A DNA stretch of 64,000 bases from Eledone cirrhosa (Eukaryota), in assembly GCA_964016885.1 (NCBI GenBank), contig OZ024743.1:162316001-162380000 (forward strand), read 5' to 3'. The translations under genes were made by a program, and so were the position numbers. Numbering within the stretch: position 1 is the stretch's first letter; each line of letters starts with the position of its first letter. The notes under the pieces were generated by a model. That model worked only from the letters and a program-made list of their open reading frames with translations, was not told where the DNA came from and did not search any database. This document shows positions 1 to 58,997 of this stretch, one piece after another.

Positions 1-2732
1 ACCTACCTATTTCGTTACTATCTACTCTTACCCCTCTTTCTTCCTCCCCCTTTCTCCCTCTCACTTTCACTCATCCTCTCTACCAGTCTTCTCTCTCCTT
101 CTACCTACCTATTTCGTTACTATCTACTCTTACCCCTCTTTCTTCCTCCCCCTTTCTCCCTCTCACTTTCACTCACCCTCTCTACCAGTCTTCTCTCTCC
201 TTCTACCTACCTATTTCGTTACTATCTACTCTTACCCCTCTTTCTTCCTCCAACTTTCTCCCTCTCACTTTCACTCATCCTCTCTACCAGTCTTCTCTCT
301 CCTTCTACCTACCTATTTCGTTACTATCTACTCTTACCCCTCTTTCTTCCTCCCCCTTTCTCCCTCTCACTTTCACTCATCCTCTCTACCAGTCTTCTCT
401 CTCCTTCTACCTACCTATTTCGTTACTATCTACTCTTACCCCTCTTTCTTCCTCCCCCTTTCTCCCTCTCACTTTCACTCATCCTCTCTACCAGTCTTCT
501 CTCTCCTTCTACCTACCTATTTCGTTACTATCTACTCTTACCCCTCTTTCTTCCTCCCCCTTTCTCCCTCTCACTTTCACTCATCCTCTCTACCAGTCTT
601 CTCTCTCCTTCTACCTACCTATTTCGTTACTATCTACTCTTACCCCTCTTTCTTCCTCCCCCTTTCTCCCTCTCACTTTCACTCATCCTCTCTACCAGTC
701 TTCTCTCTCCTTCTACCTACCTATTTCGTTACTATCTACTCTTACCCCTCTTTCTTCCTCCCCCTTTCTCCCTCTCACTTTCACTCACCCTCTCTACCAG
801 TCTTCTCTCTCCTTCTACCTACCTATTACGTTACTATCTACTCTTACCCCTCTTTCTTACTCCCCCTTTCTCCCTCTCACTTTCACTCATCCTCTCTACC
901 AGTCTTCTCTCTCCTTCTACCTACCTATTTCGTTACTATCTACTCTTACCCCTCTTTCTTCCTCCCCCTTTCTCCCTCTCACTTTCACTCATCCTCTCTA
1001 CCAGTCTTCTCTCTCCTTCTACCTACCTATTTCGTTACTATCTACTCTTACCCCTCTTTCTTCCCCCCCCCCCTTTCTCCCTCTCACTTTCACTCACCCT
1101 CTCTACCAGTCTTCTCTCTCCTTCTACCTACCTATTACGTTACTATCTACTCTTACCCCTCTTTCTTCCTCCCCCTTTCTCCCTCTCACTTTCACTCATC
1201 CTCTCTACCAGTCTTCTCTCTCCTTCTACCTACCTATTTCGTTACTATCTACTCTTACCCCTCTTTCTTCCCCCCCCCCCCTTCTCCCTCTCACTTTCAC
1301 TCACCCTCTCTACCAGTCTTCTCTCTCCTTCTACCTACCTATTACGTTACTATCTACTCTTACCCCTCTTTCTTCCTCTCGCTTTCTCCCTCTCACTTTC
1401 ACTCATCCTCTCTACCAGTCTTCTCTCTCCTTCTACCTACCTATTTCGTTACTATCTACTCTTACCCCTCTTTCTTCCTCCCCCTTTCTCCCTCTCACTT
1501 TCACTCATCCTCTCTACCAGTCTTCTCTCTCCTTCTACCTACCTATTACGTTACTATCTACTCTTACCCCTCTTTCTTCCTCCCCTTTTCTCCCTCTCAC
1601 TTTCACTCATCCTCTCTACCAGTCTTCTCTCTCCTTCTACCTACCTATTACGTTACTATCTACTCTTACCCCTCTTTCTTCCTCTCGCTTTCTCCCTCTC
1701 ACTTTCACTCATCCTCTCTACCAGTCTTCTCTCTCCTTCTACCTACCTATTACGTTACTATCTACTCTTACCCCTCTTTCTTCCTCTCGCTTTCTCCCTC
1801 TCACTTTCACTCATCCTCTCTACCAGTCTTCTCTCTCCTTCTACCTACTACGTTACTATCTACTCTTACCCCTCTTTCTTCCTCCCCCTTTCTCCCTCTC
1901 ACTTTCACTCATCCTCTCTACCAGTCTTCTCTCTCCTTCTACCTACCTATTACGTTACTATCTACTCTTACCCCTCTTTCTTCCTCTCGCTTTCTCCCTC
2001 TCACTTTCACTCATCCTCTCTACCAGTCTTCTCTCTCCTTCTACCTACCTATTACGTTACTATCTACTCTTACCCCTCTTTCTTCCTCTCGCTTTCTCCC
2101 TCTCACTTTCACTCATCCTCTCCACCAGTCTTCTCTCTCCTTCTACCTACCTATTTCGTTACTATCTACTCTTACCCCTCTTTCTTCCTCCCCCTTTCTC
2201 CCTCTCACTTTCACTCACCTTCTCTACCAGTCTTCTCTCTCCTTCTACCTACCTATTTCGTTACTATCTACTCTCACCCCTCTTCTTCCTCTCCCTTTCT
2301 CCCTCTCACTTTCACTCATCCTCTCTACCAGTCTTCTCTCTCCTTCTACCTACCTATTACGTTACTATCTACTCTTACCCCTCTTTCTTCCTCCCCCTTT
2401 CTCCCTCTCACTTTCACTCATCCTCTCTACCAGTCTTCTCTCTCCTTCTACCTACCTATTACGTTACTATCTACTCTTACCCCTCTTTCTTCCTCTCGCT
2501 TTCTCCCTCTCACTTTCTCTCATCCTCTCTACCAGTCTTCTCTCTCCTTCTACCTACCTATTACGTTACTATCTACTCTTACCCCTCTTTCTTCCTCCCC
2601 CTTTCTCCCTCTCACTTTCACTCATCCTCTCTACCAGTCTTCTCTCTCCTTCTACCTACCTATTTCGTTACTATCTACTCTCACCCCTCTTCTTCCTCTC
2701 CCTTTCTCCCTCTCACTTTCACTCATTCTCTC
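1..2732. repeat. Tandem satellite, 102-bp unit, about 27 copies, runs off the left edge of the window
   Basis: The unit acctacctatttcgttactatctactcttacccc...ctctctccttct restarts at 103, 205 and so on. The first unit has only 14 purines in 102 nt. Confidence 0.97.
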
Positions 2733-2844
2733 TCTGTCAGCCACCTCATGGTTTCCCTCGCCTGACCCTCTAGCAGTCCTTTTCTCACTTACAACTCGCT
2801 GGGGTCAGATGTGTCTTTTCTTTCGCCCACACGCTTTTGAACCT

Positions 2845-3634: not shown

Positions 3635-3735
3635 TGTTTCTACTTTAGGCACAAGGCCTGCAATTACCCAGTGCATTACTGGTACTTTATTTTATCGACC
3701 CCGTAAGGATGAAAGGCAAAGTTAACCTCGGCGGG

Positions 3736-3736
<1 letters not shown>
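3633..3736 (-). mobile_element. tRNA-derived SINE family 1, 3' part
   Basis: Reverse complement of the 3' half of the full copy at 59852-60042, with an (ATT)n tail at 3579-3632. Confidence 0.85.
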
Positions 3737-3786
<50 letters not shown>

Positions 3787-3787
<1 letters not shown>

Positions 3788-4815
3788 GATACAGTAATGG
3801 ACTACAAATTTCAGAAGTCCCATTTACTGCTGAAATGGAAAACACAGAAAAAGCAAAGCAGGTAAAAGTAACTGCAAAGAAAGAACTGCTACAGAAACTG
3901 GCTAAGAAATGGCAAGAAAAGCCTCTGTATGGAAAATACCCAGAGCGAGCTAACAATCCTGATGTTGACAAAACTTTAACCCATCAGTGGTTGGCATCCT
4001 CTGGACTGAAATCGGAGACTGAAGGACTGATTATATCCGCACAAGATCAGTGTCTGCCAACAAAAAATTACCAAGCCAACATAATAAAAAATGGATGCAG
4101 CCCATTATGCCGTGTATGCAAAAAACAACCAGAGACCATTGACCATATAATTTCAATGTGCAGTCCTATAGCTCCAACCGAATACCTAAACAGGCATGAC
4201 AGAGCTGCACAATACATACATTGGATAATGTGCAAGCATTTTGACCTGCCCCATCAAAAGAATTGGTGGGAGCATCAACCACCTCCCATACTTGAAAAAG
4301 ATCACATCTCAATCTTGTGGAACTTTAGCATCCAAACAGACCGAAAAATAGATGCAAATAGACCTGATATAATATTGAAGGACTTTCAAAGGAGGGTATG
4401 CCTGCTAATTGATATGTCTGTTCCAATAGACAAGAATGTATCTATAAAAACATTTGAAAAATTGAGCAAGTATAAGGACCTGGAGATAGAAATTGGAAAA
4501 ATGTGGAAATTGAGAACTAAAACAATACCAGTGGTTGTAGGCGCTCTGGGAATGATACCTAAGGGGTCTAACGACTACTTATCGCAAATCCCAGGAAACC
4601 CGCGTATAGGAGAAATACAAAAGATAGTACTAATGGGAACTGCCCATATACTAAGGAAGATCCTGTCAATATAAGTACATCACAAGTCTAAACACTAAGG
4701 ATGCATGTGTGAACATGTGTGTTCTTTCTTGAACATGGCGGACCTTGTTGTCTCTTGAGGTCACTGGTTGTGACTTGGTGATTACTCGTATAAACATAAA
4801 GCAAGATAAATGCAA
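3787..4815 (+). mobile_element. 5'-truncated R4/Dong-type RLE retrotransposon, family A
   Basis: Nearly identical to 9719-10750. Encodes a CCHC knuckle (CRVCKKQPETIDHIISMC) and a restriction-like endonuclease (RHD, RPD..., IDMSVP...KLSKY). Flanked by (AAT)n on both sides. Confidence 0.92.
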
Positions 4816-4832
4816 ATAATAATAATAATAGT

Positions 4833-5643
4833 ACCTTCTTTGAGAAAACTGAATTCAGAGATCCACAGACATGGAACTGGTTGAAAAGAGGAGACCTTAA
4901 AAAGGCTACAGAAGGAATGTTAATGGCTGCGCAAGAGCAGGCCCTCAAAACGAAGTGGTTGAAACACCATATTTACAAGGAGGAGGCTAGCCCACTGTGC
5001 AGGATCTGTGGAGAGAGAGAGGAGACTGTGGCTCACATTGTATCCGAGTGTAAACACCTAGCCCAGACTCACTATAAGGGCTGGAGACATGATGTGATGG
5101 GCAGGGTGATCCACTGGCACCTATGCAAAGTAAACAATTTACCACATTCTGAGAAGTGGTATGAGCATAAGCCAGAGTCGGTGATAGAAAACGATCAGGT
5201 GAAGGTGCTGTGGGATTTTAAGATACAGACGGACAAGAAACTGGAACACAATAGACCTGACCTGGTGGTTGTAGACAAAGAAAAAAGATCGTGCCTGATT
5301 GTGGATGTGGCCTGCCCATTCGACACGAGAGTGCAAGAGAAGGAGAGGGAGAAAATTAACCGATACCAGGACTTAAAGTGGGAGGTAAAAAGGATTTGGA
5401 ACTGCCATGAAGTTAAAGTGGTCCCGATTGTCATAGGCACACTAGGTACTATCTCAAAAAGTTTCCAGGGATGGTTAAAGAAAACTGGCCCCTTCACGCT
5501 TTTTGGAACGCTTCAAAAGGCATGCTTGTTGGGAACAGCAAGAACCCTCCGATACGTCCTGAATATCTGAGGCTGCAGGTAGTGGCTTGATATTCATTTC
5601 AACAAACTTTCCAGTTAACCAACATCAATGACTGAGACTCAAA
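4833..5643 (+). mobile_element. 5'-truncated R4/Dong-type RLE retrotransposon, family B (ORF to 5570)
   Basis: ORF 4881-5570 has CRICGEREETVAHIVSEC, RHD, RPDLVV..VDVACP..EKINRY. Followed by an (AAT)n then (GAA)n tail. Confidence 0.9.
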
Positions 5644-5664
5644 GAATAATAATAATAATAATAA

Positions 5665-5695
<31 letters not shown>

Positions 5696-6183
5696 AAGAA
5701 GAAGAAGAAGAAGAAGAAGGGAAGAAGACGCACGTGGTGGTAGAAGGTCATGAAATCGCTCCCGTAAGTTTTTGATTTTTAACATATTTAAATCAATTGT
5801 GAAGTAACAATTCTTAGTACAAATGATGCATACACCACCGAATCAAGTCTCATAAAATTTCGGTTCCATAATATATTGTTATATCGCTCAAATATTCAAT
5901 TTTGTATTATATATTTTATATTAAAAAAAGAAAATGGTTATAAATGGAAGAAAACCCCCTCTGTCTACACTATATAGAACAGCCAAATAACAGCAATTTC
6001 ACCAACACCAGAGACTTGATACACCACCTACCCCATCACCCCGCTGTGTACACTAAATATAACAGCCAGATAACGGCAATTTCACCACCACCACCACTAA
6101 TCCCAGCATCATAATAATAATTACTATTATTATTGTCTCAAGTTTTAACAAAATGTTTAATTGCAATATTAAGATGAATATGT

Positions 6184-6322
6184 CAACACATATATTAAAC
6201 ATACGCGACACAAACGCATAGATACTACAGATCAAACAAAACTAGTCTATTCAACACATATATTAAACATACGCGACACAAATGCATAGATACTACATAT
6301 CAAAAAAACTAGTCCATTCAAC
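6184..6322. repeat. Tandem duplication, ~69-bp unit
   Basis: caacacatatattaaacatacgcgacacaaa.gcatagatactaca appears at 6184 and again at 6253. Confidence 0.85.
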
Positions 6323-6769
6323 AAAACTCAGTAACGACAACGCCACCGCCGCCACCACTCCATCCATCATTGCTACCACTATCCCATCACCGCCGCCACC
6401 ACTCCTTCATTGCTACCACCACTATTCCCCTGTTAACTTAAGAAAGGGGAAGGTGGCGGTATCACTAGACAAGGGAGAGGCTAGCAAAAGATATAAATAG
6501 ATTGACTTAGTGACCCGGCCACCGACCAAACGTCAACAACTATGGCACTGCTGGCCCCCCCCCCTTCCTCACCAACAATATAAAAAGCCCCAGCACCACC
6601 ACCGACATAGCCAACAACAATAACAGGCAACTTCAGCAAAAAGTATATTATATTATTGTAATGCACTGGGTGATTGCTGGCCTTGTGCCTGGAGTGGAGA
6701 CAATTATTAATAATTTCATTCTTAAGCCACGCAATGCTCACATTAAGGAACCACTCATGATAATAACAA

Positions 6770-9700
6770 TTTAAAAAAACAACAAAAAAGAAAACCGCGT
6801 GACCAAGAAATACCGAGAAGGCGGCCGGCGGGGAATAGCCGTGTCTCTAGGGGAGAATGACCCCTCTAGTCTTGGTTGACACTCGTTCTAGAAGTGGTAA
6901 CACGAAATGATTACCCCTTGGCGGATAAGGATAAAACGCGACAAAATAAAGTAAATGTCTAATGATAAAATCTCATACCGGATCGGCCGTCACCCGGGTA
7001 AAAAAGGGCCGCGTCCCTCAGAGAGGAACCAGACTGGGGTCGAAAAATCAGCTAATGGTTCAAACCTTCCCATCACTTCGGAGCTGGAGACCTCCCATAA
7101 CCGGAATACTCCTACTGTTGGCCCTCCATGCTCACCACCAAGAAATCCAAAGAAAAAGAGAGAAAAATGGTCAAGGGAAGATAATAAAGAAGTCCTTGAG
7201 GCTTTCTACACTGCCATGTACTACCCATCAAATACATCGAATACAGAACAGACATATATCAACTGGAAAAAGAAACATCCCGAAAACAGAGGCTATATTG
7301 ACAGTAACAAACTAGCCAATAACGAAGAAATATTGTAAAAAAAAAGTTACTAACTGATATAGAAATTGATCAGATCAAGCTATTAGCACAAAGTCAGCGA
7401 AGGGAAAATGAAACATGTGTCAGTGAAAACGAGGTAAATTGTAACACTTCGAATCCCAGGGTTGGGGCGGAATCACTGGCAACAGAACAAATTAAAGAAA
7501 GGATCGAAAAAGTGGAGGGAGTGCATGCTCAAGATGAAACTCCAAATGAAAATAATGAGATCGTAAATGATAAAGAAATGAATGAGAATGAACTTGCCAA
7601 CTTGAAGGATGAAATTATGATCGAATGGATGAAAATGAAAGAATCTGACATGGGGCAACGAGACACCCTCCCTAAGATCCAGAACTCCAAACAGAACCAA
7701 AAGATAATACACAAGACTAACATAATTCTCAAAAACATTATCATCACAAACAAACTAAACATTACTGATTTAAATCATCTCTATTATGCATCGGCTAAAG
7801 TCACCACTCACTTATGTGGAGTGAAGATGAAAAAACAAAGGAATTCCCTCAAGAAATCTACTTGGCAAGAGAACATCAATCACCAAATAAACCTTCTCCG
7901 ATCTGACATAGAAATTTTAACAAACTATAAAGTAGGTGAACAAGTTAAACAAACTAAACTTAGAAAATTGAAAAGAAAGTACAGTATAAAATCAACAAGT
8001 GACATAGACATGCTGATAGAAATAATCAAGCAAAAAGTGTCGGCCAAAGCTGCTCGTATAAGGCGCTTTGAAAAACGATCTAGATTCTATAAGGACAATA
8101 ATATGTTCAAAAACAACCAAAGAAACTTCTACAGAAAAATTGGTAAGTCAACAATAACTGCTAAATTAATACCACCCAAGGAGGAAGTGCAAGAATTCTG
8201 GGAAAAGATCTGGGCCGAAGAAAAAGTTCATAACATACATGCCCCATGGATAGACAGAAAAAATGAAAGATACGGCTCACCTTGAAGAACAAATATGGGA
8301 AAATATAACAGTTGAACAGTTGCGCTTGGCTCTAAGGAAAACCAGCAAATGGAAATCCCCAGGAAAAGACAAAATACAAAATTTTTGGATAAATGCCTTC
8401 ACAGAGTCTCATGAGCTGTTAGCCCAACTTTACAATGAAATAGTTAAGGAGCCAGAAAAGATACCATCATGGCTAGTTAACGGCATTACATTCCTGCTTC
8501 CGAAGAATGATGAGACAAACAATCCCAAAAATTACAGACCGATAACTTGCTTGACCACAATGTATAAAATTTTAACATCAGTCCTAACTGAATACACATA
8601 TGACCACCTGATAACAAATGACCTATTTCCCATTGAGCAGAAAGGGTGTAAACGAGGCTCATATGGCTGTAAGGATCAGCTTTTGGTTAACAAAATGATA
8701 CCGGAAGATTGTCATAATAGACACAAAAATCTATCAATTACTTGGATATATTATAAAAAAGCAGTCGATAGTTTGCCACACAGTTGGATTGAAAAATGTT
8801 TAGAGATTTTCAAAATATCCCCCGTTGTCAGGAGGTTTTTTGTCATTCGGTATGAAGACATGGAAAACGACACTCTTTTTGAATAGTGAAACAAAATCAC
8901 TGGAAGCTGGAGAAGTTAATATTAATTGTGGAATTTTTCAGGGTGACTCTTTATCACCGCTTTTATTCTGCATTGCACTTATACCATTAAGTAAAATGCT
9001 CAATGAAACAAAACGTGGATATAAAGTCTATGACAAAACTATTAATCACTTGTTCTACATGGATGACCTGAAACTATCTGCAAAAAATGATGAACAATTG
9101 CAAGGGCTATTATCCACTGTGGAGCAGTTCAGTGATGACATTAAAATGGAGTTTGGACTAGATAAATGCGCCAAAGCAACGTTCACCAGAGGAAAGCTGC
9201 TGAAGAGTTCAGACATTAATCTTGATCGGGGGAACGTGATAAGAGAACGTGATCAAGAAAAAACTTACAAATATCTAGGTGTTTGTGAAGGAGACGGAAT
9301 CAAGCACTCGACAATGAGGGAAAGGATAAGCAAGGAATGTTACCGCAGAGTAAGAGCAATCTTAAGAACGGAATTGAATACAAGGAATAGGATCGATGCC
9401 ATAAACACGCTTGCCATACCTGTAGTAACCTACAGTTACAATGTCATCAACTGGTCAAGCACAGAGATCCGTAGGCTCGATACAAAAATTCGAAAATTCT
9501 TAACCATGCACAGAATGCATCACCCTAAGGCAGATACAGATAGAATATATCTCCCTAGGAAAGAAGGAGGACGTGGGTTAATCCAGTTAGACATTGCGTT
9601 GAAAACTGCAACAATTGGATTATCTACATATCTAAGGGAATCACATGATTGGATGATCAAACTCGTTTTGAAACACGAAAGCATCAAAAGATCATATTCC

Positions 9701-10750
9701 ATTACAAAAGATGCACAAAGATACAGTAATGGACTACAAATTTCAGAAGTCCCATTTACTGCTGAAATGGAAAACACAGAAAAAGCAAAACAGGTAAAAG
9801 TAACTGCAAAGAAAGAACTGCTACAGAAACTGGCTAAGAAATGGCAAGAAAAGCCTCTGTATGGAAAATACCCAGAACGAGCTAACAATCCTGATGTTGA
9901 CAAAACTTTAACCCATCAGTGGTTGGCATCCTCTGGACTGAAATCGGAGACTGAAGGACTGATTATATCAGCACAAGATCAGTGTCTGCCAACAAAAAAT
10001 TACCAAGCCAACATAATAAAAAATGGATGCAGCCCATTATGCCGTGTATGCAAAAAACAAACAGAGACCATTGACCATATAATTTCAATGTGCGGTCCTA
10101 TAGCTCCAACCGAATACCTAAACAGGCATGACAGAGCTGAACAATACATACATTGGATAATGTGTAAGCATTTTGACCTGCCCCATTAAAAGAATTGGTG
10201 GGAGCATCAACCACCTCCCATACTTGAAAAAAGATCACATCTCAATCTTGTGGAACCTTAGCATCCAAACAGACCGAAAAATAGATGCAAATAGACCTAA
10301 TATAATATTGAAGGACTTTAAAAAGAGGGTATGCCTGCTAATTGATATGTCCGTTCCAATAGACAAGAATGTATCTATAAAAACATTTGAAAAATTGAGC
10401 AAGTATAAGGACCTGGAGATAGAAATTGGAAAAATGTGGAAATTGAGAACTAAAACAATGCCAGTGGTTGTAGGCGCTCTGGGAATGATACCTAAGGGGT
10501 CTAACGATTACTTATCGCAAATCCCAGGAAACCCTCGTATAGGAGAAATACAAAAGATAGTACTAATGGGAACTGCCCATATACTAAGGAAGATTCTGTC
10601 AATATAAGTACATCACAAGTCTAAACACTAAAGATGCATGTGTGAGTATGTATGTTCTTTCTTGAACATGGCGGACCTTGTTGTCTCTTGAGGTCACTGG
10701 TTGTGACTTGGTGATAACTCGTATGAACATAAAGCAAGATAAATGCAACT
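6770..10750 (+). mobile_element. Near full-length R4/Dong-type non-LTR retrotransposon, family A
   Basis: Structured 5' UTR, one long ORF broken into pieces, 3' UTR and (AAT)n tail. Insertion in (TAA)n is typical of Dong-type elements. Confidence 0.92.
6955..10607 (+). pseudogene. Disrupted ORF: N-terminal domain + reverse transcriptase + CCHC + RLE
   Basis: ORF pieces 6955-7338, 7512-8285, 8263-8886, 8825-10189 and 10173-10607. RT motifs NYRPITCL, EQKGCKRG..CKDQLL, GIFQGDSLSP, FYMDDLK, YKYLG. Several frameshifts, plus a CAA>TAA change at ~10187 relative to the copy at 3787. Confidence 0.9.
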
Positions 10751-14659: not shown

Positions 14660-15162
14660 ATGTCTGTATCTGCTCGCGATCTATTGGTACATTCTACCAA
14701 GTCATATTCGATTGCAGGTAACGGCCGTAGTTTTAGTTTTCGCGCACACACACACACACACATATATATATATGCATACACACACATACATATATATGCA
14801 TATATATATATATATATATATATAAGGAACGATCGACTTTCGTCGAATCGGACCGAGGGAACAATGTTTCCGTTGGTCTTTCCAATTGCTAATACTATCT
14901 ATCGGTCGCAACTCCAGGTAGAAGGAGCAACGTGAAATAAAGTGTCTTGCTCAAGAACATAACGCATCGCCTGGTCCAGGAATCGAACTCACAACCTTAC
15001 GTTTGCGAATCCAATTCTCTAACCACTCCGCCACACGTCTTCAAGGCGTGTGGCTGAGTGGTTATATATATATAAAACTGAAAAGGTGGTCAAGAAGGCA
15101 TTAACCACCCAAGCCAAAAACCAATTCAAGCTAAACAGATCAAAACAAAATAAATGATAAAA

Positions 15163-15209
<47 letters not shown>

Positions 15210-15341
15210 TATATATATGTATGTGTGTGTATGCATAAATATATATGTGTGTGTGTGTGCGAAAACTAAAACTACGGCTGTTACCTGTAATCGAATATGA
15301 CTTGGTAGAATGTACCAATAGATCGCGAGCAGATACAGACA
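14660..15341. repeat. Inverted duplication (arms 14660-14822 and 15167-15341), including the microsatellite flank
   Basis: tgtctgtatctgctcgcgatctattggtac...ttttcgc(ac)n is the reverse complement of (gt)n gcgaaaactaaaac...gcagatacagaca. Confidence 0.9.
14925..15037 (-). mobile_element. tRNA-derived SINE family 2, 5' part
   Basis: The minus strand reads GTGGCGGAGTGGTTAGAG (A box)...GAGTTCGATTCCTGG (B box)...ttcttgagcaagacactttatttcac. Confidence 0.8.
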
Positions 15342-15856
15342 TCATCTCAACATTCCTTCGCATGATGCAGAAAAACACGGGGATACACCATACTGGGTTG
15401 GTACTTTCTTTATCGGCCCCAGAGGATGAAAGACGTTCGAACAAGTCTTCTAAATCGACTGCATGTATATGAGATTTTCGTTTTGATTGATTAACATGTC
15501 TGATGAGCAGATTGGGCTGGAATTGCGTCTATAACACTAGCATGCATCCTGAGCCAGCCATGTGTGAAAAGACCGCCACTGTACATAATCAGTAAAGACA
15601 ATAACAAATCTCATTTTGTTCCCCTTAAATATATCCTGGGAGTGTAACGCGAAGTTACTGTAGGTTCACGCAGGTCAGCATTCAATGTGTAGGTTGAGGC
15701 CAGTATGGAGGTGTAGAGCTAGACAGTGTGTAATACAAGGACGAATGGTTAAGCCTTCATTACGTTTACTGGTTAGTGACGCGCGTTTCGCTATTGATCA
15801 CCTCAAGGTTCGATCTGGCCCGACTCTCGAATCAAAAGCTCGTTCAATCTCTGTTG

Positions 15857-15901
<45 letters not shown>

Positions 15902-16075
15902 ACACATGTATATATATATATATACACATACAAACACGCGCGCGCGCTATTGAATGTATGTATAGTATATTTGGCAATATACCGTATGTTTAATTAAAAA
16001 CATTTAGAAGACCTTACGCTATCGGTTTGAAAGTAGTGACTATGTCACTTCGTTTCGGCGAAAGAAGGGAAAGAA

Positions 16076-16115
16076 GCTGACAGTCTGTTTCACGCTGGTT
16101 GGCGTTAATCAGAGC
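16076..16115 (-). ncRNA. Type I minimal hammerhead ribozyme motif (core variant CUGAUUA)
   Basis: GCU-CUGAUUA-ACGC caacca GCGU-GAAA-CAGACU-GUC-AGC. G8 is substituted. Confidence 0.65.
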
Positions 16116-16487
16116 CACGCACTCCCCTGCTTCCACCGAAAATTATAGAAGCTGGATTCTTATAGAATTCCAGTAATAATCAGGAGCTGATTATACAGAG
16201 CGATTGCCGATCCAGCAAAAATTAGGTATTATGATTGATGCTCTGAAATAGCGATGTATACATGAATGTATGTATAGTATATTTAGCAATATACCATATG
16301 TCTAAATGTTTTTAATTAAACATACGGTATATTGCCAAACATGCTATACATACATTCATGTATGCATCGCTATTTCAGAGCACCAATCCTAATACCTAAT
16401 TCTTGCTGTAAATCAGCTCCTGATTATTACTGGAATTCTATAAGAATCCAGCGTCTATAATTTTCGGTGGAAGCAGGGGAGTACGTG

Positions 16488-16527
16488 GCTCTGATAAACG
16501 CCAACCAGCGTGAAACAGACTGTTAGC
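16488..16527 (+). ncRNA. Type I minimal hammerhead ribozyme motif (core variant CUGAUAA)
   Basis: GCU-CUGAUAA-ACGC caacca GCGU-GAAA-CAGACU-GUU-AGC. Confidence 0.6.
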
Positions 16528-16645
16528 TTCTCTCCCTTCTTTCGCCGAAACGAAACATAGTCACTACTTTAAAACAGATAGCGTATGGTCTTCTAAACGT
16601 TTTTAATTAAACATACGGTATATTGCCAACTATACTATACATACA

Positions 16646-16721
<76 letters not shown>

Positions 16722-16724
<3 letters not shown>

Positions 16725-17035: not shown

Positions 17036-19700
<2,665 letters not shown>

Positions 19701-24446: not shown

Positions 24447-25956
24447 CATTTCTGAATTTGTTTAGCAAGATTCTTTATTTGAAAACGTGTGTTGAGACCG
24501 ATATTGTTATACTTTTGGAGGGTCATGTTGCCAATAAGAAACACACGCACCAGTTGCTTTCACTCCAATTTATAATAAATTAAATTATAAATTTTAAAAT
24601 TTATAGATTTCCGGTTGGTTGGTTGGTTGGTTCCACAACCGGACGGTTGTTCATATATTGTCAAAGTTCTTTCGTCACACATTCTGTGACCTCTTCAGAG
24701 AATGGGGATTCTTTTCTTTGTTTTGTGCCTCTCCTTTGTTCTGTCCTACGCCATCTTGTTTTTGTGTGTGTTGTGTGCTTAGTTTGCGCAAGTATTGCAT
24801 CCGGGTGTCTGTGTGTGTTTTCATTTGTTTATTTATATGTTACTAGTTGGTTGTTTGTTCTATGTGTGTATGTTTTCATTTTGTCCTCAATTGTAAGTTG
24901 TGATGTTGCTATCAAATTATGTTTTCTATTTAATTTTGGTTGGAGTTCATTTATGTTTATTGCCTCTGTGATTTGTCTAGACATTGCGTCTTTTCTATGT
25001 GCAGTTTTTATTTTTATTTCTATGTTCTCTAATTTGCCCTTATGTTGGTGGAGTACTGATGATTCTTTTCTATCTTGAAGCTCTCGCCAGTGTTCATTTA
25101 ATCGTTCTCCTATGCTACGAGCTGTCTCACTTATGTACATAATACACTTATTAGTAATACACACCCTTTTCAAAGACCTCCCTGTATAGACAGGAAAAGC
25201 ATAATCTGTAAACTAAGCCCCCATATTAACTGTAATACTAGAAACATAGTTTATATCATAAGATGTACTGAGGGACAATGTAAAGATAAGAATATAATGT
25301 ACATAGGTGAGACAGCTCGTAGCATAGGAGAACGATTAAATGAACACTGGCGAGAACTCCAAGATAGAAAATACTCATCAGTACTCCACCAACATGCTAA
25401 TATAGAACCTAAGGGCAAATTAGAAAACGTAGAATTAAAAATAGAATCTACACACAGAAAAGACGCAATGTTTAGACAAATCACAGAGGCAATAAACATA
25501 AATGAACTCCAACCAAAATTAAATAGAAAACATGAATGGAATAGCAACATCACAACTTACAATTAAGGACAAAATGAAAACACGCACACATAGAACAAAC
25601 AACCAACCAGTAACATGTAAATAAACAAATAAATAAACAAATAAAAACACACACAGACACCCGGATGTAACACATGCGCAAACTAAGCACACAACACACA
25701 CAAAAACAAGATAGCGTAGGATAGAACAAAGGAGAGGCACAAAACAAAGAAAAGAATCCCCAGTTACTGAAGAGTTCACAGAATGTGTGACGAAAGAAAT
25801 TTGACAATATATAAACAACCGTCCGGTTGTGGAACCAACCAACCAACCAACCGGAAATCTATAAATTTTAAAATTTATAATTTAATTTATAATAAATTGA
25901 AGTGAAAGCGACTGGTGCGTGTGTTTCTTATTGGCAACATGACCCTCCCAAAGTAT

Positions 25957-30559: not shown

Positions 30560-32909
30560 ACGTATTTATTTAGTGTTTTTTCCTGACTTTTTGCGAGGCT
30601 TGGAATGTAGAGGAAGCTTTATGAAGGTAATTTGAGAATAATCCACTTTTTTTGTTAATTAAATTATCATTTTTAATAGGGTCTTCATGGTACAGAGATT
30701 ACAATTAGGTGATATTGACGAATTCCAGTATATTCGACTATTACACAGCTTCGACCAAGTAATCGAGTATTTTAAATTTTTGTCTTTTAACGACCATGTA
30801 AGTTGTGATAAAGAAGTCGAAGATTTCCTATTAGGATTCAAAAAAGAGCATTTATGATTCGCAAATCTTAATTTAAATGTCGATGAAGTTGCACTAATGT
30901 AGTTGTATGTGATGTCATTTGCTTTTACGGTGCATTTATAGACCAGATTGCTATTCAGACAATTATTTTGTAGAGGGCAATTTGATCTATTTCTACAATT
31001 ACATTTCGATTTATTGTTATTACTATAAATTGGACAATTGATATTAACATTGTTAGTACTTTGAAGTGTTCTATTGATTGTGCTTAGATCAATGTTATTG
31101 TTATTCCTAGTATTAATATTGCTAGTGTTATTAAATTCATTATCGTTAATTGTTTGTTGATTATGATTTAGAATTCTACTATTTATTTTTGCGATGTTCT
31201 GGGCCATATTCATAGTTGTAGAATAAGAAAGCTTAATTGTGTGTCTGTTAAATATGGACCGGTATTTGTGTTGAATGGGGAAGCATTTATCTAAAGCTTT
31301 AAAGAATAGATTTGCGAGTGGTGTTTTTATTGCTACCGAAGCGGGGGGTGGGCAAACCATATAACTGATTTAGTTCTGATTTTTTTCGCCGATTTATTCA
31401 CGGTATTGGTGTTTGTATTATAATTTTTAGAATCTCGTTTGTATATGTTAGTCTTATTTTTATCAGGATTATAATTCAAATTATTATTATCTATATATTC
31501 AATATTATTTTTATAACCTACCTTTCTTAGCGCGTCATTATAATATCCTGCTTTTTCATCTAATATGGATTTATTAGCGGAAATTCTAGTTATGCGTTTC
31601 TGCACACTATTGACTATTGCATTTTTCACGGATTTAGGGTGATTAGAGTAATAGCTAAAGTAATTTAAGTTTTCATTGGGAAAGGGTAATAAAAACCAGA
31701 GTTTAAGTTAAGGGTAACGTCAAGGAAATTAACTATTTTGGTACTACTTTCAACTTCTAATTTAAGGTCATAATTTTTTAAGAATTCAATTATAGTTTTC
31801 TTAACCCTATTTAGTTCTGTGTTGCTATGTTTGACAACCGTAAATAAAATATCGTCCCTATATAAACCACCGGTAATCTCCGGCAGTTTTCTATTTACCA
31901 TATTTAAGATAAAAATCCCCAGAAGATCGGTGACCTGCGCTGAGTCCGATGAGCCCATGGTAATGTCAAAGTTTCTATTCCTATCTGAACGGGTCCAATA
32001 CTCATTGTTGAAATTAATTAGAGTTATTTTAACAGTTAATATTATATTGATTTCATCCGTAGTTAGATCTGTATGTTTGTAAGCATAAGACAAAGCCTTA
32101 TTTAATAGGTTAGGTGTAATAGAAGAATTATAGCTTGCTATGTCCATTTGGATGAATTTGTGATTTTTCTTATTATCTATATTTTTAAACCAGTCAATCA
32201 CTTCATTAGTGTCCTTCCATAAGCTCAATTTAGACTTCAATTTCAGAGTAGGTAGAATTCTATCAATAATATTCTTACTGATTACTCCAATATCCGATTT
32301 AGATGGAGCTATCAGTCTAACGGGCAGGTCTTCCTCAAAGTTTCTCTTGTGATCCTTAAAATTTATCCTCGACTGTCTATGTATAAAAGGTTCGGTTCTT
32401 CCTTCAATTCTAAGTTTGGCTATTAATTTAAATGCATCATTATTGATGTCTGTAAGATCTTCAGCCGGGGCTTTGCTATAATTGTTCCGCAGTTCTTTTA
32501 AAATCAAATCATTATATTCTTCTGTATTTATCCCATATAAATTGTTGGTTTTGTCAGACTTCACCAATATTTTATTCACTTTTTTTATATCTAAGATTTT
32601 TTCTTTTAAAGTTCTAAGGTATTGGTGACCTTTATATGGATTTTTCTTGAATTTAATCTTCTTTAGTATATTCAACATTTCTGTTTCAAAATCCTCCAGG
32701 AGTTTGTTGTATGGGGGATTTTTTCTAAATTTAAAGATAGTTTCGAAATTATTGTTGTTGCTTTTCCTTTTAGCTTCTTTATTATAGAAATGAAATGCCC
32801 GCTATCTCACTCTTCTTATAAAAGTTTCCTCTATAAGTTTCCTCATGTATTCTTCATTAGATGGTATTGGTATATCCTTGAGAGATGTCGGGAATGTGAA
32901 GAATTTCAT
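30560..32909 (-). pseudogene. PLE RT + GIY-YIG ORF (Naiad-like motifs), frameshifted
   Basis: ATG at 32909: MKFFTFPTSLKDIPIPS..; KSDKTNNLY; KDHKRNF..VRLIAPSKSDIG; FDITMGSSDSAQV..GGLYRDD; CNCRNRSNCPLQNNC; LVYKC..YISAT..FKLRFANH; CNLC. Confidence 0.92.
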
Positions 32910-38888: not shown

Positions 38889-39211
38889 GCGCATTAGTAA
38901 AAGTTTGGGCACCAATGAGGATATAGACACATTTGTTTATATAAATGTGTGTGTAGGTATAAATATATATATGTGTGTGTGTGTGTGCGTGTATATGTGA
39001 GTGTGTGTGCGTATGTGTGTGTATGTATTTATGTATGTATGTATTCATCTATGTATTGTATGTATATATATATATAGGAAAATGTATGACCCCGACGGCA
39101 GAGCTCAAGCCGTTTCGACGGCTATTTCTAGACTATATATATATATATTACACACATGCATATTACACACTTGCAAACATACATACTTGCAAACATACAT
39201 GTATATGCGTG

Positions 39212-39249
<38 letters not shown>

Positions 39250-39299
39250 TACGTTTGTGATACAGAGATACGCGCACATACATATATATTATATATATT

Positions 39300-39760
39300 C
39301 TTCCTGGTCCAAGCAGCCCTCACCAGCGCACGTGAGGTCCAACAACACCTCAGTTTTCACTCTTGCTTCAGACCCCACTGCTACACATGCAATTTCATCA
39401 CCAACACCACTAGCTTTAGTGGGCCAAACGGCCAATTTTTCCAAGTCAGAAACTCCTTCCGCTGCACCTCCTCCAGCCTTGTCTACGGGTTCCATTGCAC
39501 GTTATATGAGGCCGTCTACATTGGAAAAACCGGTTTTCGACTAGCAGACAGGTTTGCCGAGCATCTCCGTGGCATTAGGCTCGGTAACCAGTCTCCAGTT
39601 ACCCGACATTTCCACACCGCTCGGCACTCTACACACCATCTTACTGTTTTCGACCTCGTTGCTTGCTCCGAAGCCCAGGATTCAGCAGATTATTGTTTCT
39701 CTCCAAACATGGAGCGAAAATTGCCTTAAATCCCCATCCCTCTTCCTATAACCGTTCCCA
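39300..39760 (+). pseudogene. PLE GIY-YIG endonuclease fragment with Cys-rich linker
   Basis: CFRPHCYTCNFI...SFRCTSSSLVYGFHC..VYIGKTGFRLADRFAEH...PVTRHF. Confidence 0.85.
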
Positions 39761-47147: not shown

Positions 47148-47715
47148 AGAGAGAGAGACAAACAGGGAGACAAAGGTAGAGAGGTGACTTTAATATAGCG
47201 TGGGACACCCTAACTTAGGGCCTCGAAAGAGCTTTATCCAACCCTGAGTGTGATGTATCAATCAATTGGTCGAGAACTCGAGAACATACAGGCCCACTCA
47301 GGTTGTCACTGGACATATATAAACAACAGTAGTAAACTGAGGCTAAACAACATCTAAATATTTTATAAAACCCATATTGTCTCCCCAACCATTCGCTCAC
47401 TCGCATACAACTCAAGCTGATCTGTTAAAGGTCACTGTACTGTGTCATTAAGAATTACAATTTTAGCATCATTCAATTGTAGGGGACTAAGGTCGCTCTC
47501 AGCAATGTGTTGTGTGTAGAAATTATAGTGTCTGAGATATGTTTTTGAATTGATAATGTTTTGCTTGGTGTGATCTATTTGTAACGTTGTGTGCACTTGT
47601 GCGGTTTATACATACATACATACATACATACATACATACATACATACATACATACATACATACATACATACATACATACATACATACATGCATACATACA
47701 TAAAGGCATATATAT

Positions 47716-48212
47716 ACATAATATGAAAGAGTACTGGTGGAATGTTCCAGTAAAAACCCCAATAAGATGCAGGCATAGCAGACCAGATATAATGATATGG
47801 GACGGAGAAAAGAAGTCATGCAGAATAGTGGAAGTTAGCTGCCCAGGAGATGCCAATATAATATCAAAGATTAGCGAAAAGAAGAATATTTATGCAGAAC
47901 TAAGGAGAGACTTACAGATACTCCACCCTGACTATACCTTCAGATTTATACCTGTGATTATTGGGACACTGGGATATGTTAGTAACTGACTTAGTACAAA
48001 GCTTGAGAAGCTGGGCTTCACAGAAACAGAAAGAACACGACTAGTTAAAAAAATTACAAGTACAATCCATTAATGGGTTGTAAAAATATGTAAAACATTC
48101 CAATAATTCTGCATCTAATAACTCTATGTAAACATGTACAGATACAAAGAATATACACATGCACATATATAACTCAAAACATACACCTCCACACATACAA
48201 TAACATCCATAC
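47716..48212 (+). mobile_element. R4-type RLE family C, 3' fragment after (CATA)n
   Basis: HNMKEYWWNVPVKTP..RPDIMIWD..VEVSCP. Matches 50326-50820. Confidence 0.9.
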
Positions 48213-50950
48213 CTGAATACTATCTTCGACAGTAATGCTACAACTACAGCCAGGTTGAATAACTGGTTATTCTTCTAACTATCCCTTCTGACGACACCTT
48301 TTATTCGAATTCGTAAAGATATCCGACTAAATACATAATTCATTTTACAAGGATTTGCTACAAACAGCATGGCTGAATACAACATCAACAACAAAATTAA
48401 GGAAGTATCGAAGACAAACAACGAGAAAGGTAAACAAACTTTATTCAGTTGTAGCTACAGAAGAAACCGAAATTATAAATCGCATTTCTCTTGGACTTAA
48501 TGATGATTTATTTAATTGTTATAAAATGGCAAAAAACAATCCCTCCATTGGCTATATAAACAGAAGGAAGCTACACTGGGACGAAATGGACCCAGAGCTA
48601 AATTATTTCACAGCGAAACAATTACGCCAACAAGCGACGTTTGTTGAACGTAAAAATAAGATAAATATTATTAATTGTAAGTCACCCACAACAAACATGG
48701 GATTAACAACACGTGCTACAGGTCGCCATGCTACTAGACTTCCTAGCAGCCAGGTTGAACAGCGCCTTTGAAACAACTATGCCTGTAAGAAACTTGACAC
48801 CACCTGTACCATCTAAGTCTACCTCGAATGCTGGGGAAAACACTATCGATAATAATAATAATCGAAGAAATAATAATAATAATCGACGAAATTTGACACC
48901 ACGTGTACCATCCGAGTCTACCTCGACTGTTGTGGAAAATACTAGCGATAATGATAATAATCAAAAGTATAAACAATTGAAAATTTCCCTCAACGAAATC
49001 TTCCAGAGAGAAATTAATTCATGTATAAACATTTCTCTTGTTGAAAGTTTTAAAACAACAATATTTAATAAAAAATAAAAAAATAATAAAAAAATAATGA
49101 AATATTACGTGTTATTGACGAAATGGGGGATGAATATTTACGACGGATAAAAACCCCAACATTTTGGCAAATCAACGCCTGTTTATATGCCTTAGCAACG
49201 ACAGTGAAGCTTTATCTTGGTAGCAGAGATATTAACAAGAACAAAACACCACTAAAAATACCATCATATATAACTAAATTAGAAAAAAAGATTGCTGACC
49301 TACGAAAAACCATAGGATATGTGACAATGCTCCTTACATGCAAACAAACACAAAAAAACCTCACACCTCACCAACAAAGAGTGAAAAATAAAATAGAGAC
49401 GATGTTTGGTAACAGTAGAACCAGAACACTTCAATATAATCAGTGCTTAATAAAAGATTCGGACGAAACCAAACGGAACTCTCTGCGCAAAACAAAACAG
49501 TGGCTCACAATGTGTTTGCTGTGCCTGTCCTAACACCAACGTTTGAAATACTTAATTGGACAATAGACGAAATCCGAGCAGTTGATGTTGGAACTCGAAA
49601 AATACTAAACAACACCGGAAACTTCCATATCAACAGTGATATAGACCGCTTTTACTTGAAACGTAAGCAGGGAGACAGAGGCCTAACATCAGTCCAGACA
49701 GCATTTGAATGTCGCATCATATCCCTCCGACAACATCTACGAACCTCAAAGCGTAGGAGCCTGCTTCTCGAGCAAGTCTATCTGCATGAAACAGATAAGA
49801 TCATGAGAGTTGGGAAGGAACTCCTCGAGAGATATTCCCTGTGGGATAATCAAAAACTCACACCCAGGGAAGTCGCTCAGCAGTATCGCAGTGAATCCAT
49901 GGATGAAAAACTGCATGCCTATCAGCAAAAGATTTTGCACGGATATGTTGCCAGGAAGTTCCAGAGTGAGAGTAATATAGATAAGGAAAGTAGTCTATCT
50001 TGGACCAACAACCGCTATATTGGCTCCCACTTTGAAGGATACGCTTTTGCAATCCAAGAACAGGAGATTAGCACGAAATACTTGATTCACAAAAGAGATA
50101 GGGATGCAGGCAAAACACCTAGATGTGATAACAAGTGCAGACTCTGCAGAATTAACATTGACGATGTCACCCATGTCATAAGCACCTGTCCAAAGATGTC
50201 ATCGTGGTACTATTTACCTATGAGGCATGATATAGTGGCCAAAACACTGTACAATGCAGTTCGTAAAAAAGATAGCCCCGATAATAAACACATTAAAAGC
50301 TACAACAATGTGGAAGACATCCATGTACATAATATGAAAGAGTACTGGTGGAATGTTCCAGTAAAAACCCCAATAAAATGCAGGCATAACAGACCAGATA
50401 TTATGATATGGGAGAGGGAGAAGAAAACATGCACAGTAGTGGAAATTAGCTGCCCAGCAGATGCCAATATAATATCAAAGATTAGTGAAAAGGAGAATAT
50501 TTATGCAGAGCTGATGAGAAATCTGCAGATACTCCACCCTGATTACACCTTCAGATTTATGCATGTGATTATTGCGGCACTGGGATATGTTAGTAACTGC
50601 CTCAATACAAATCTTGAGAAGCTAGGCTTCACAGGAACAGAAAGAACACAACTAGTTAGGAAACTACAAGTACAATCCATTAATGGAACAGTAAAAATAT
50701 GTAAAACATTACAAAAATTTTGCATCTAATAACTACATATACACATGTACAGATACAAATATACACATGCACACATACAACTGAAAACATCCACATCCAC
50801 ACATACAATAACATCCATATCTACACATGCATGCAGACATACATATCTACCTAGTTGATGTTGTGTAAATTCCAATGAGAGAGACTTGTGTCTATGTTAG
50901 AAATCGACTCTCTCTCTATTGGTAAAACTTTGTGAAATTATAAAACCAGA
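48213..50950 (+). mobile_element. R4-type RLE family C copy with the RT core deleted
   Basis: The N-terminal piece (NDDLFNCY..WDEMDPELNYFTAKQLRQQA) joins at ~49445 to ORF 49443-50729 (thumb, CRLCR..HVISTC, RHD, RPD..EISCP). Ends in (CATA)n. Confidence 0.88.
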
Positions 50951-52883: not shown

Positions 52884-54478
52884 TAACGTTTCTGAATTTG
52901 TTTAGCAAGATTCTTTATCTGAAAACGTGTGTTGAAACCGATATTGTTATGCTTTGGGAGGGTCATGTTGCCAATAAGAAACATACGCACCAGCTGCTTT
53001 CACTCGAATTTATTATAAATTAAATTTATAAATTTAAGAATTTATAAATTTCCGGTTGGTTGGTTGGTTCCATAACCGGACGGTTGTTCATATATTGTCA
53101 AATCTCTTTCGTCACACATTCTGTGACCTCTTCAGTGACTGGGGATTCTTTTCTTTGTTTTGAGCCTCTCCTTTGTTTTGTCCAACGCCATCTTGTATTT
53201 GTGTGTGTTGTGTGCTTAGTTTGCGCATGTGTTACATCCGGTTGTCTGTGTGTGTTTTTATTTGTTTATTTATTTGTTTATTTACATGTTAATGGTTGGT
53301 TGTTTGTTCTATGTGTGTGTGTGTGTTTTCATTTTGTCCTTAATTGTAAGTTGTGATGTTGCTATTCCATTCATGTTTTCTATTTAATTTTGGTTGGAGT
53401 TCATTTATGTTTATTGCCTCTGTGATTTGTCTAAACATTGCGTCTTTTCTGTGTGTAGATTCTATTTTTATTTCTATGTTCTCTAATTTGCCCTTATGTT
53501 CTATTTTAGCATGTTGGTGGAGTATTGATGATTCTTTTTTATCTTGAAGTTCTCGCCAGTGTTCATTTAACCGTTCTCCTATACTACGAGCTAGCTCACC
53601 TATGTACACTATATTCTTATCTTTACATTGTCCTTCAGTACATCTTATGCTATATACTACATTTCTAGTTTTACAGTTAATATGGGCGCTTAGTTTACCG
53701 ATTATGCATTTCTTATCTATACAGGGAGGTCTTTGAAAGGGGTATGTATTGCTAATAAGTGTTTTTATGGAGGTAGCTGGTCTTTCTACTATCTTAATAT
53801 TAAGTTTGTGTTTATCTTCTAAATTTGTAAGCTAATTCACCTCTAGGGGTTGTATTGATGAACATTACACTCTGGTATTTATTGCTATCATACCATGAGT
53901 TTATTCTATTAACCTTATTCCTAGTTCTTTCTATTCTATTCCAAATTTTGCCCCTATACAAGAGGCAGGTCCCATTTGTATCATTATTTACCATTTTTTC
54001 CCATTTGGTTCTGGCTCCTCTATATACTCTGATTTTATCTCTCTGATTGTAACCAGAGAACTGCATACGGTGGATGAAGTGTTGTATGTGTCTCTATAGT
54101 TCTTTGGGGTTGCACATGCGGGACACGTTTCTCATCACCTGTACCAAATCCGCAATCAGTATGTTGATTTTGGTATGGTCCGAAACAGCTGAGTTTCGGT
54201 GGATCAGATATTTGGAAGTCATGGGTTTGGCATAATGGGAATGGAGGATTTGTTTTTTGTTATTAATGGTTTCTAACCAGATCTCTGTGTCTAGTACAGG
54301 TAATCGATGATTGGGGTGTTTGCTTGGGTAGTCTATAGTAACTCTAATACTCTGGTGGATCAACCGGAAATTTATAAATTTTTAAATTTATAAATTTAAT
54401 TTATAATAAATTGGAGTGAAAGCAACTGGTGCGTGTGTTTCTTATTGGCAACATGACCCTCCCAAAGCATAACAATAT
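52884..54478 (-). mobile_element. 5'-truncated PLE (RT C-terminus, GIY-YIG) with a ~120-bp inverted terminal copy (54361-54478)
   Basis: DYPSKHPNHRLPVLD..YAKPMTS; YIGELARSIGERLNEH. Same family as 24445-25962. TATTAATA occurs at both junctions. Confidence 0.92.
53097..53139 (-). ncRNA. Type I hammerhead ribozyme motif
   Basis: GUCA-CUGAAGA-G GUCACA gaaug UGUGAC-GAAA-GAGA-UU-UGAC. Confidence 0.75.
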
Positions 54479-58625: not shown

Positions 58626-58771
58626 TTTTGAGTTTATGTTGGTTGTATACCAACACCTCAGTATGCAGGCTGGAGCACTCGACGAAGTGCGCAGGTTGGT
58701 TTGGTTACTCCGGAGTAGTGTAAAATAAAGTTAAATAAAAGTCAAATGATTAAAATTTAGCTTCGTTTATT

Positions 58772-58826
58772 ACTGCTATATATATTTCAGTGACAGCCAT
58801 CTTTGGCTGTGACCTCTTCAGGCAGT
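58772..58826 (-). ncRNA. Type I hammerhead ribozyme
   Basis: Exact inverse of 58998-59052. Confidence 0.85.
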
Positions 58827-58997
58827 TTGAATTAGTATGGTATAGACAAGTACATATGTTGTTTAGGTGTATGATATTGTCAATGACTCCAGTTCCCCAG
58901 TGAATTAACAACCCAACAAGGAACTGGGCATATCAGAGTATTGACAATATCATACACCTAAACAACATATGTACTTGTCTATACCATACTAATTCAA

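What the first reader, a model, noticed from the sequence alone, without database searches (positions are those of the whole stretch)
15951..16650. Coding-free ~312-bp hammerhead unit, more than one monomer long and mirrored: candidate retrozyme
Seen: each arm is one ~312-bp unit plus ~40 bp of the next, with a single hammerhead per unit. The two copies carry different substitutions at core G8 (U and A), consistent with decay from CUGAUGA. There is no ORF. Established: animal non-LTR retrozymes are short tandem hammerhead repeats that yield circular RNAs and are proposed to use PLE enzymes. Inference: greater-than-unit length copies fit reverse transcription around a circular or multimeric RNA.
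Basis: partly seen in the sequence, partly recalled or inferred. Interest (0 to 1): 0.72.

Follow-up and report, generated by a model that had tools for sequence, protein, structure and literature searches.

The report
Dead two-armed Penelope-copied hammerhead repeat
This is a mirror-image pair of copies of a 316-base non-coding repeat with a hammerhead (self-cutting RNA) motif, broken in both copies here; the repeat occurs at hundreds to thousands of sites in this animal genome and was likely pasted in by a Penelope-type jumping-gene enzyme, possibly from a small RNA circle.

Summary
Observation confirmed. Two head-to-head arms (15951-16305 minus, 16301-16649 plus) each hold one unit with a type I hammerhead plus 43 or 58 bp of 5' redundancy. 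Both cores are broken at G8; most other copies keep CUGAUGA. The family is dispersed (3089 first-look candidates, 514 exact intact-core matches), about 3.4% diverged, non-coding, and not the pseudo-LTR of any coding Penelope-like element (PLE) sampled. Its 3' ends are not circularly permuted. They fall at two fixed sites about 36 nt apart, mostly in (TA)n, and 30 of 36 classed inverted pairs use one site at each end: the PLE 'tail' footprint. A young sister family forms long two-armed arrays with the same two sites. The 'unit plus 40 bp' shape here may be the end state of array collapse rather than the length of the copying run. No RNA data were available, so cleavage and circular RNA are untested. 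This scan has already noted this kind of element several times on other DNA of this genome; this is an older, inactive sister family.

The parts
15951..16262 (-). Left arm, full 312-bp unit; outer 3' end at site A (…CATACATTCA), 15951
   Evidence: 10 substitutions in 312 aligned bases against the family majority
16263..16305 (-). Left arm 5' redundancy, 43 bp (end of a preceding unit)
   Evidence: (D5)
16052..16142 (-). Type I hammerhead with extended stem I; core CTGATTA at 16112-16106 (G8 changed to U), predicted cut after GUC between 16079 and 16078
16301..16305 (.). Head-to-head junction; 5-bp overlap shared by both arms
16301..16358 (+). Right arm 5' redundancy, 58 bp
   Evidence: (D7)
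16359..16649 (+). Right arm, 291-bp unit with internal deletions; outer 3' end at site A, 16649
   Evidence: 12 substitutions in 291 aligned bases against the family majority
16461..16551 (+). Type I hammerhead; core CTGATAA at 16491-16497 (G8 changed to A), predicted cut after GUU at 16524
16649..16723 (.). (TA)37 flank, the likely target microsatellite
   Evidence: 104 of 181 family arms end in (TA)n
15862..15950 (.). Left flank of mixed (CA)n/(TA)n/(CG)n microsatellite

Best explanation
The locus is one insertion of a non-coding 316-bp hammerhead repeat with both ribozyme cores broken, likely made when a Penelope-type reverse transcriptase/endonuclease cut a (TA)n tract and copied a likely circular RNA from both DNA ends. 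Shown: head-to-head arms, two fixed 3' ends about 36 nt apart with one used at each end of most pairs, variable 5' ends, (TA)n flanks, shared rare variants within insertions, and no attached ORF. Inferred steps: a multi-unit transcript is cut by its hammerheads into monomers and ligated into circles; a helper PLE protein starts cDNA at two internal RNA sites; the two cDNAs are joined at their unfinished ends by short microhomology or a small fill-in; the arms later shrink by recombination between units until the remaining redundancy is too short (43 and 58 bp here); the cores then decay. Odds: PLE-driven non-autonomous element about 0.85; circular rather than linear multimeric template about 0.5; collapse explaining the arm length about 0.55.
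For: 3' ends: site A 101, site B (tail) 56, other 24 of 181 arms in 129 insertions; 50 of 51 multi-arm insertions are simple head-to-head pairs; 30 of 36 pairs with both ends classed are A+B (17.8 expected, p=2.6e-5); (TA)n follows 104 of 181 arms. Craig et al. describe inverted 5'-truncated copies, a 30-40 bp tail often at one end only, and (TA)n bias as PLE features (PMC8557442, passages). Frangieh et al. show that a PLE protein nicks and extends both strands at AT-rich DNA and starts at two internal RNA sites that define the tail (PMC11167929, parts 1-2 of 4). Rare variants are shared within insertions at 0.44 (inverted) and 0.69 (tandem) per 100 nt against 0.062 between insertions (one recent DNA duplication, L147, gives 16 of 71 tandem sharings). 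30 of 73 insertions in the hammerhead-pattern set have an arm longer than 326 bp without counting the tail; the longest is 1103 bp. A young sister family (69% identical, 4033 exact motif matches) forms two-armed arrays of 0-9 full units per arm at 99-100% identity, and 6 of 6 fetched arrays have A+B ends at the homologous sites. Sister families keep the stems by compensatory changes, including U3-A8 for C3-G8. Collapse: arms with one or more full units have a short partial unit (<100 bp) in 22 of 33, against 10 of 32 for unselected sub-unit arms (p=0.006); 24 of 42 A-ended but 3 of 20 B-ended selected arms keep a full extra unit (p=0.002).
Against: This locus is one of the minority A+A pairs (5 of 36), so it lacks the tail. 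No pile-up of 5' ends at the cleavage site: 3 of 155 arms within 5 nt, and 1 of 38 unselected partner arms; the first figure is biased low by selecting intact hammerheads. This fits a circle or an uncut multimer equally. Frangieh et al. found uncut RNA to be the main substrate and cleavage dispensable in vitro, and a 76%-identical sister forms an array of at least 155 units, a ready source of linear multimers. No A-to-G strand excess marks an RNA stage (A>G 207/16526 against T>C 199/16068, p=0.92). No helper PLE sharing the unit's sequence was found in 79 coding loci. Sharing of variants between arms could also come from gene conversion. In the monomer's lowest-energy fold part of the core is mis-paired. 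The age series has only three families, and the samples are biased towards full-length or intact-core copies.
Confidence: 0.6

Rival explanations
1. Same PLE two-end insertion, but the template is a linear, uncut read-through transcript of a tandem array; no circle is involved and the hammerhead is a passenger.
For: Uncut RNA is the dominant substrate of a PLE protein in vitro. A sister family has an array of at least 155 units over at least 50 kb. 5' ends ignore the cleavage site.
Against: No long array of this family was found: 41 two-motif tandem matches, 2 of them in an unrelated satellite, none consecutive. Stems and core covary across sister families, which suggests that cleavage matters for spread. 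Young sister arrays are 99-100% identical across both arms, whereas the long array's units vary by 1-4%.
Confidence: 0.27
2. The arms are 5'-truncated pseudo-LTR remnants of a coding PLE.
For: Type I hammerheads lie in PLE pseudo-LTRs, and 24 of 57 Xenopus retrozyme families match 22 known elements, 21 of them PLEs (10.64898/2026.07.22.740005). One copy (L080) directly follows a decayed RT/GIY-YIG frame in the same orientation.
Against: 0 of 29 other copies of the L080 coding family carry the unit after the GIY-YIG frame; they have their own 3' end with another hammerhead. Longer arms continue into another unit, not into an ORF. Of 78 single-orientation insertions only 3 have PLE protein matches within 600 bp upstream, and only L080 is collinear. 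One of 79 coding loci holds the unit, as a separate inverted insertion about 670 bp past the GIY-YIG match.
Confidence: 0.06
3. A DNA-level event (fold-back repair, or a MITE-like palindromic DNA element) made the mirror structure.
For: This locus has symmetric A+A ends and a 5-bp microhomology at the centre; the arms share a rare variant.
Against: Across the family the centres vary freely and 30 of 36 pairs have different outer ends; 78 of 129 insertions have a single orientation; young sister arrays have arms of unequal unit number.
Confidence: 0.04
4. For arm length only: the enzyme goes once round a circle and stalls 15-75 nt after meeting its own cDNA, so 'one unit plus 40 bp' is the original insertion length.
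For: 17 of 24 A-ended selected arms with an extra unit stop 14-75 bp past one turn.
Confidence: 0.2

Closest known systems
Metazoan non-LTR retrozymes (Cervera and de la Pena 2020, PMC7229834, parts 2-4 of 6 read; Li, Clavereau and Pollet 2026, 10.64898/2026.07.22.740005, parts 1-3 of 5 read, supplements closed)
   Same: Non-coding unit of about 316 bp, low GC, one type I hammerhead per unit, strongly self-paired RNA, thousands of copies as monomers and dimers, co-existing with coding PLEs; sister families form long tandem arrays.
   Different: This family is dispersed with mostly 0-1 extra units per arm; it is often head-to-head with two fixed 3' ends, which the parts read do not describe for retrozymes; no sequence match to a PLE pseudo-LTR was found; this locus has dead cores; RNA not seen.
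Penelope-like elements and their insertion structure (Craig et al. 2021, PMC8557442, 12 passages read; Frangieh et al. 2024, PMC11167929, parts 1-2 of 4 read)
   Same: Partial tandems, inverted 5'-truncated partner, 30-40 bp tail at one end, (TA)n targets, type I hammerhead, two start sites.
   Different: No RT or GIY-YIG ORF; the repeat period is the 316-bp unit itself.
Rfam Hammerhead_HH9 (RF02275, clan CL00010)
   Same: An intact family copy aligns over all 77 model positions, with core, stem II, the CCAA-type loop II and the UAC stem I bulge matching.
   Different: 25.1 bits against a gathering score of 52; stem I has mismatches to the model and stem III has a 3-nt loop; the window's copies do not hit.

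Membership tests
Metazoan non-LTR retrozyme | Short (150-450 bp) non-coding repeat unit | tested here: met
   66 full monomers, majority length 316; longest stop-free frame 46 codons
Metazoan non-LTR retrozyme | Type I hammerhead with intact core (family level) | tested here: met
   514 exact intact-core matches, control 0; 35 of 46 segments intact; weak Rfam HH9 hit
Metazoan non-LTR retrozyme | Active locus: two consecutive units with complete hammerheads (definition of Li et al.), at this locus | tested here: not met
   One hammerhead per arm, opposite strands, both lacking G8. The locus is therefore filed only as a dead copy of the family.
Metazoan non-LTR retrozyme | Tandem organisation (family level) | tested here: met
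   41 two-motif tandem matches, 2 of them in an unrelated satellite; longest arm 3.4 units; sister arrays of up to 9 units per arm and of at least 155 units
Metazoan non-LTR retrozyme | Self-cleavage of the RNA | not testable with these tools
   Only folding and covariation were done
Metazoan non-LTR retrozyme | Expression as monomeric circular RNA | not testable with these tools
   No RNA holder listed
Metazoan non-LTR retrozyme | Target-site duplication longer than 4 bp, when present | tested here: inconclusive
   Flanks are mostly (TA)n, which hides a duplication
Non-autonomous PLE passenger | Two fixed 3' ends 30-40 nt apart, tail at one end of inverted insertions | tested here: met
   157 of 181 arms at sites A or B; 30 of 36 pairs A+B. 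This locus itself is A+A.
Non-autonomous PLE passenger | Variable 5' truncation, head-to-head inversion, (TA)n targeting | tested here: met
Non-autonomous PLE passenger | Identified autonomous partner sharing terminal sequence | tested here: inconclusive
   None in 79 coding loci, a small sample of 10597 GIY-YIG candidates
Autonomous PLE (pseudo-LTR remnant) | Unit lies directly 3' of an RT/GIY-YIG ORF in longer copies | tested here: not met
   1 of 78 single-orientation insertions is collinear with an ORF, and 0 of 29 other copies of that coding family carry the unit

The most novel reading that the evidence does not exclude
This genome holds an age series of one retrozyme lineage (young arrays of up to 9 units per arm, intermediate 0-2, this old family 0-1) that records the whole life cycle: Penelope enzymes run round a small self-cut RNA circle from both ends of a DNA break, using two start sites kept over 30% sequence divergence, and the arrays then collapse like solo LTRs to 'one unit plus about 40 bp'. 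Many apparent pseudo-LTR-like hammerhead monomers in animal genomes would then be collapsed retrozyme arrays.
Probability: 0.3. Interest if true: 0.62.

Novelty: new member of a known kind. Interest (0 to 1): 0.37.

Why it matters
Mobilisation of animal retrozymes by PLEs is proposed in the papers read but not shown mechanistically. The family's two fixed ends match the two start sites shown in vitro for a PLE protein, so the lineage offers a 316-nt template to test trans-mobilisation and circle copying. The young sister family is the better test object; this locus is a dead, atypical (A+A) copy, and the scan has noted this kind of element before, so the added value is the older time point and the collapse signal.

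Tried and rejected
RNA evidence: no RNA holder listed; four runs of unrecorded kind, kept as contigs, were laid on a family copy and say nothing on expression, ends or circles. Rfam at gathering score: 0 hits in 3 loci; the window's miRNA hits reflect hairpins and microsatellites. L061 (two opposed hammerheads 4.7 kb apart) has no PLE frame between them. L080 as the autonomous partner: rejected; the rest of that coding element is not downstream either, so it is a one-off chimera or an insertion with deletion. L079, L014 and L067 lie near PLE fragments but are separate from them; L140 abuts one in opposite orientation. A-to-I editing scars: none as a strand excess. Helper identity by comparing 3' ends of coding families: no match; two families with long open frames also end in (TA)n at two sites, by eye about 60 nt apart (few copies). 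DNA search with the young sister unit gave 0 candidates (the tool skips very common words), and a motif search found it. Earlier notes by sequence and by nearby place: none. Paper searches listed no description of this family; 'octopus' was used as a term because earlier scan notes call the genome a cephalopod, which I did not verify. Only the held library was searched, and Repbase was not available. Clade names for the coding PLEs were not tested by a tree and are not claimed.

Full report
Observation. The region holds two inverted arms meeting at a 5-bp overlap (16301-16305): left 15951-16305, right 16301-16649. In ribozyme sense both point outward. Each is one unit (312 and 291 bp) preceded by 43 or 58 bp of the end of a previous unit, and each ends at the same base next to a microsatellite. 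Each unit has a type I hammerhead with 4/4/3-bp stems at the tip of a long stem I; the cores read CTGATTA and CTGATAA. No frame exceeds 46 codons. The two hammerhead regions fold at z = -4.1 and -4.9.

Family. The own genome (3.0 Gb) gives 3089 first-look candidates, of which 40 were scored; 126 exact matches to a 37-nt hammerhead motif; and 514 to a gapped intact-core pattern, each with 0 in the reversed control. 66 distinct full monomers have a majority length of 316 and a median divergence of 3.4%; the window's arms differ by 10 of 312 and 12 of 291. Position 8 is G in 41 of 46 segments from loci chosen by similarity alone, so both arms here have decayed. Frangieh et al. report that G8C or C3G abolishes cleavage of a PLE hammerhead; that G8U and G8A do the same is my inference from the lost C3-G8 pair. 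An intact copy matches Rfam Hammerhead_HH9 weakly but end to end and folds at z = -7.0 linear and -6.4 circular.

Not a pseudo-LTR. Of 78 single-orientation insertions, 3 have PLE protein matches in the 600 bp upstream (12 query proteins from this genome), and only L080 is collinear and abutting; only two pairs share junction-near flank, one a segmental duplicate. The coding family in L080 has its own 3' end: 0 of 29 other copies carry the unit there. Among 79 coding PLE loci the unit appears once, as a separate inverted insertion, plus one 41-bp weak hit. Arms longer than a unit run into another unit. The sample covers a small part of 10597 GIY-YIG candidates.

Insertion anatomy. From loci L001-L170, after dropping hits under 78% identity or 18 nt, clusters under 60 bp and exact duplicates, 129 insertions with 181 arms remained (L151, a duplicate of L150, was left in there and removed). 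The sets are biased: 30 best full-length matches, first rows of intact-core patterns, and dimers. 3' ends fall at site A (101), at site B about 36 nt further on (56) or elsewhere (24); 104 are followed by (TA)n. 50 of 51 multi-arm insertions are simple head-to-head pairs, and 30 of 36 with both ends classed are A+B, 5 A+A (this locus among them) and 1 B+B (17.8 A+B expected, p = 2.6e-5). Centres show overlaps of 2 bp or more in 19, near-blunt joins in 14 and gaps in 17 of 50 (from BLAST ends). This is the PLE pattern described by Craig et al. and explained by two internal start sites and extension of both target strands. Start points are thus fixed, not permuted; 5' ends are spread and show no pile-up at the cleavage site (3 of 155 arms; 1 of 38 unselected partner arms). 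Rare variants are shared within an insertion 7-11 times more often than between insertions, and polymorphic sites agree at 0.88 and 0.83 against 0.64, as expected if both arms come from one template lineage; gene conversion is not excluded. There is no A-to-G strand excess.

Sister families. A 69%-identical 310-bp family has 4033 exact motif matches and forms two-armed arrays, 99-100% identical, with 0-9 full units per arm; 6 of 6 fetched arrays end at the homologous A and B sites. A 76%-identical family with a U3-A8 core has 7 dispersed loci examined, with 0-2 full units per arm, and one array of at least 155 units. Across seven aligned units 8 of 20 named pairs show changes on both sides, above all 500 shuffles and the slid controls; the rows are related, so this is support and not a probability. 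Earlier notes of this scan describe two-armed 310-nt families in this genome; my A+B result preceded that look-up, and whether the family is the one they describe was not checked.

Why one unit plus about 40 bp. If copying stopped with a hazard that repeats with the unit, the number of full units would not depend on the length of the partial unit. It does: 22 of 33 arms with an extra unit have a partial under 100 bp, against 10 of 32 unselected sub-unit arms (p = 0.006), and for partials of 175 bp or more 44 arms have no extra unit and 7 have one or more. A-ended arms keep an extra unit in 24 of 42 cases, B-ended arms, whose tail adds 36 bp of redundancy, in 3 of 20 (p = 0.002). Collapse of arrays by recombination down to a redundancy too short to recombine predicts all three patterns and the fall in unit number from young to old families. 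A stall after one turn of a circle is the rival. Both are inferences from small, biased samples and these tests were chosen after seeing the data.

Mechanism and limits. Most likely a multi-unit transcript was cut to monomers and circularised, as shown for coral, mussel and axolotl retrozymes, then copied by a helper PLE from both ends of a break in (TA)n, joined at the centre, trimmed and left to decay. The PLE footprint is shown; cleavage, circle, helper and collapse are inferred. A linear uncut multimer fits nearly as well. No RNA data bear on it. Supplements of the Li et al. preprint (family lists) could not be seen and might bear on novelty.

Verdict. A real feature: a dead copy of a new family of a known kind (non-LTR retrozyme-like, non-autonomous PLE passenger). 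Interest 0.37: the family-level footprint makes a proposed route testable, but the young sister arrays, already noted by this scan, are the better object.

Noticed in passing
G000:C2:207686300-207736000+ (L250-L254): Tandem array of at least 155 units (at least 50 kb, right end not reached) of a 76%-identical sister unit whose hammerhead core reads UUGAUAA (U3-A8 in place of C3-G8); its left end has a short opposite-strand arm, so it looks like one arm of a two-armed insertion grown into a satellite.
   Followed up: partly
L227-L232 (G000:C1, e.g. 5388500-5392900): Very young 310-bp sister family in two-armed arrays with A+B ends; 4033 exact motif matches.
   Followed up: partly
L080 3398-5223 (G000:C3:209719400-209721200): Decayed RT/GIY-YIG frame joined directly, at short microhomology, to a 5'-truncated unit; possibly a template switch from the short RNA to a coding PLE RNA, which would hint at a helper.
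   Followed up: partly
window 17330 (+), 27342 (-), 35475 (+), 45857 (-): Hammerhead motifs of another family (8-bp stem I, palindromic stem III), similar in build to those at the 3' ends of coding PLEs.
   Followed up: no
window 58770-59060: Another head-to-head pair of hammerhead-bearing arms (core CTGAAGA at 58821 minus and 59003 plus).
   Followed up: no
window 17477-17880: A further inverted element between two (TA)n tracts with a CTGATGA…GAAA motif at about 17650; 14660-15342 is another inverted pair.
   Followed up: no
window 31665-32801 (-), 30659-31369 (-), 18853-19248 (-), 25102-25566 (-), 53340-53831 (-), 39001-39729 (+): Fragments resembling PLE RT and GIY-YIG frames from several families; Pfam hits are weak or absent. 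3649-10607 and 47585-50729 hold other retrotransposon-like frames (RVT_1 at 8804-10189).
   Followed up: partly
L201 (938 aa), L203 (1096 aa), L202 (844 aa): Long open RT/GIY-YIG frames, candidate helpers; the L201/L202 family has a hammerhead-like motif with core UUGAAAA (U3-A8).
   Followed up: partly
L147 1332-1956: Two adjacent units share 16 rare variants and differ at 1 site: a recent DNA-level tandem duplication of an already decayed unit, showing that arrays also grow without RNA.
   Followed up: no
window 1-2733: 102-bp pyrimidine-rich tandem repeat, 26.8 copies.
   Followed up: no
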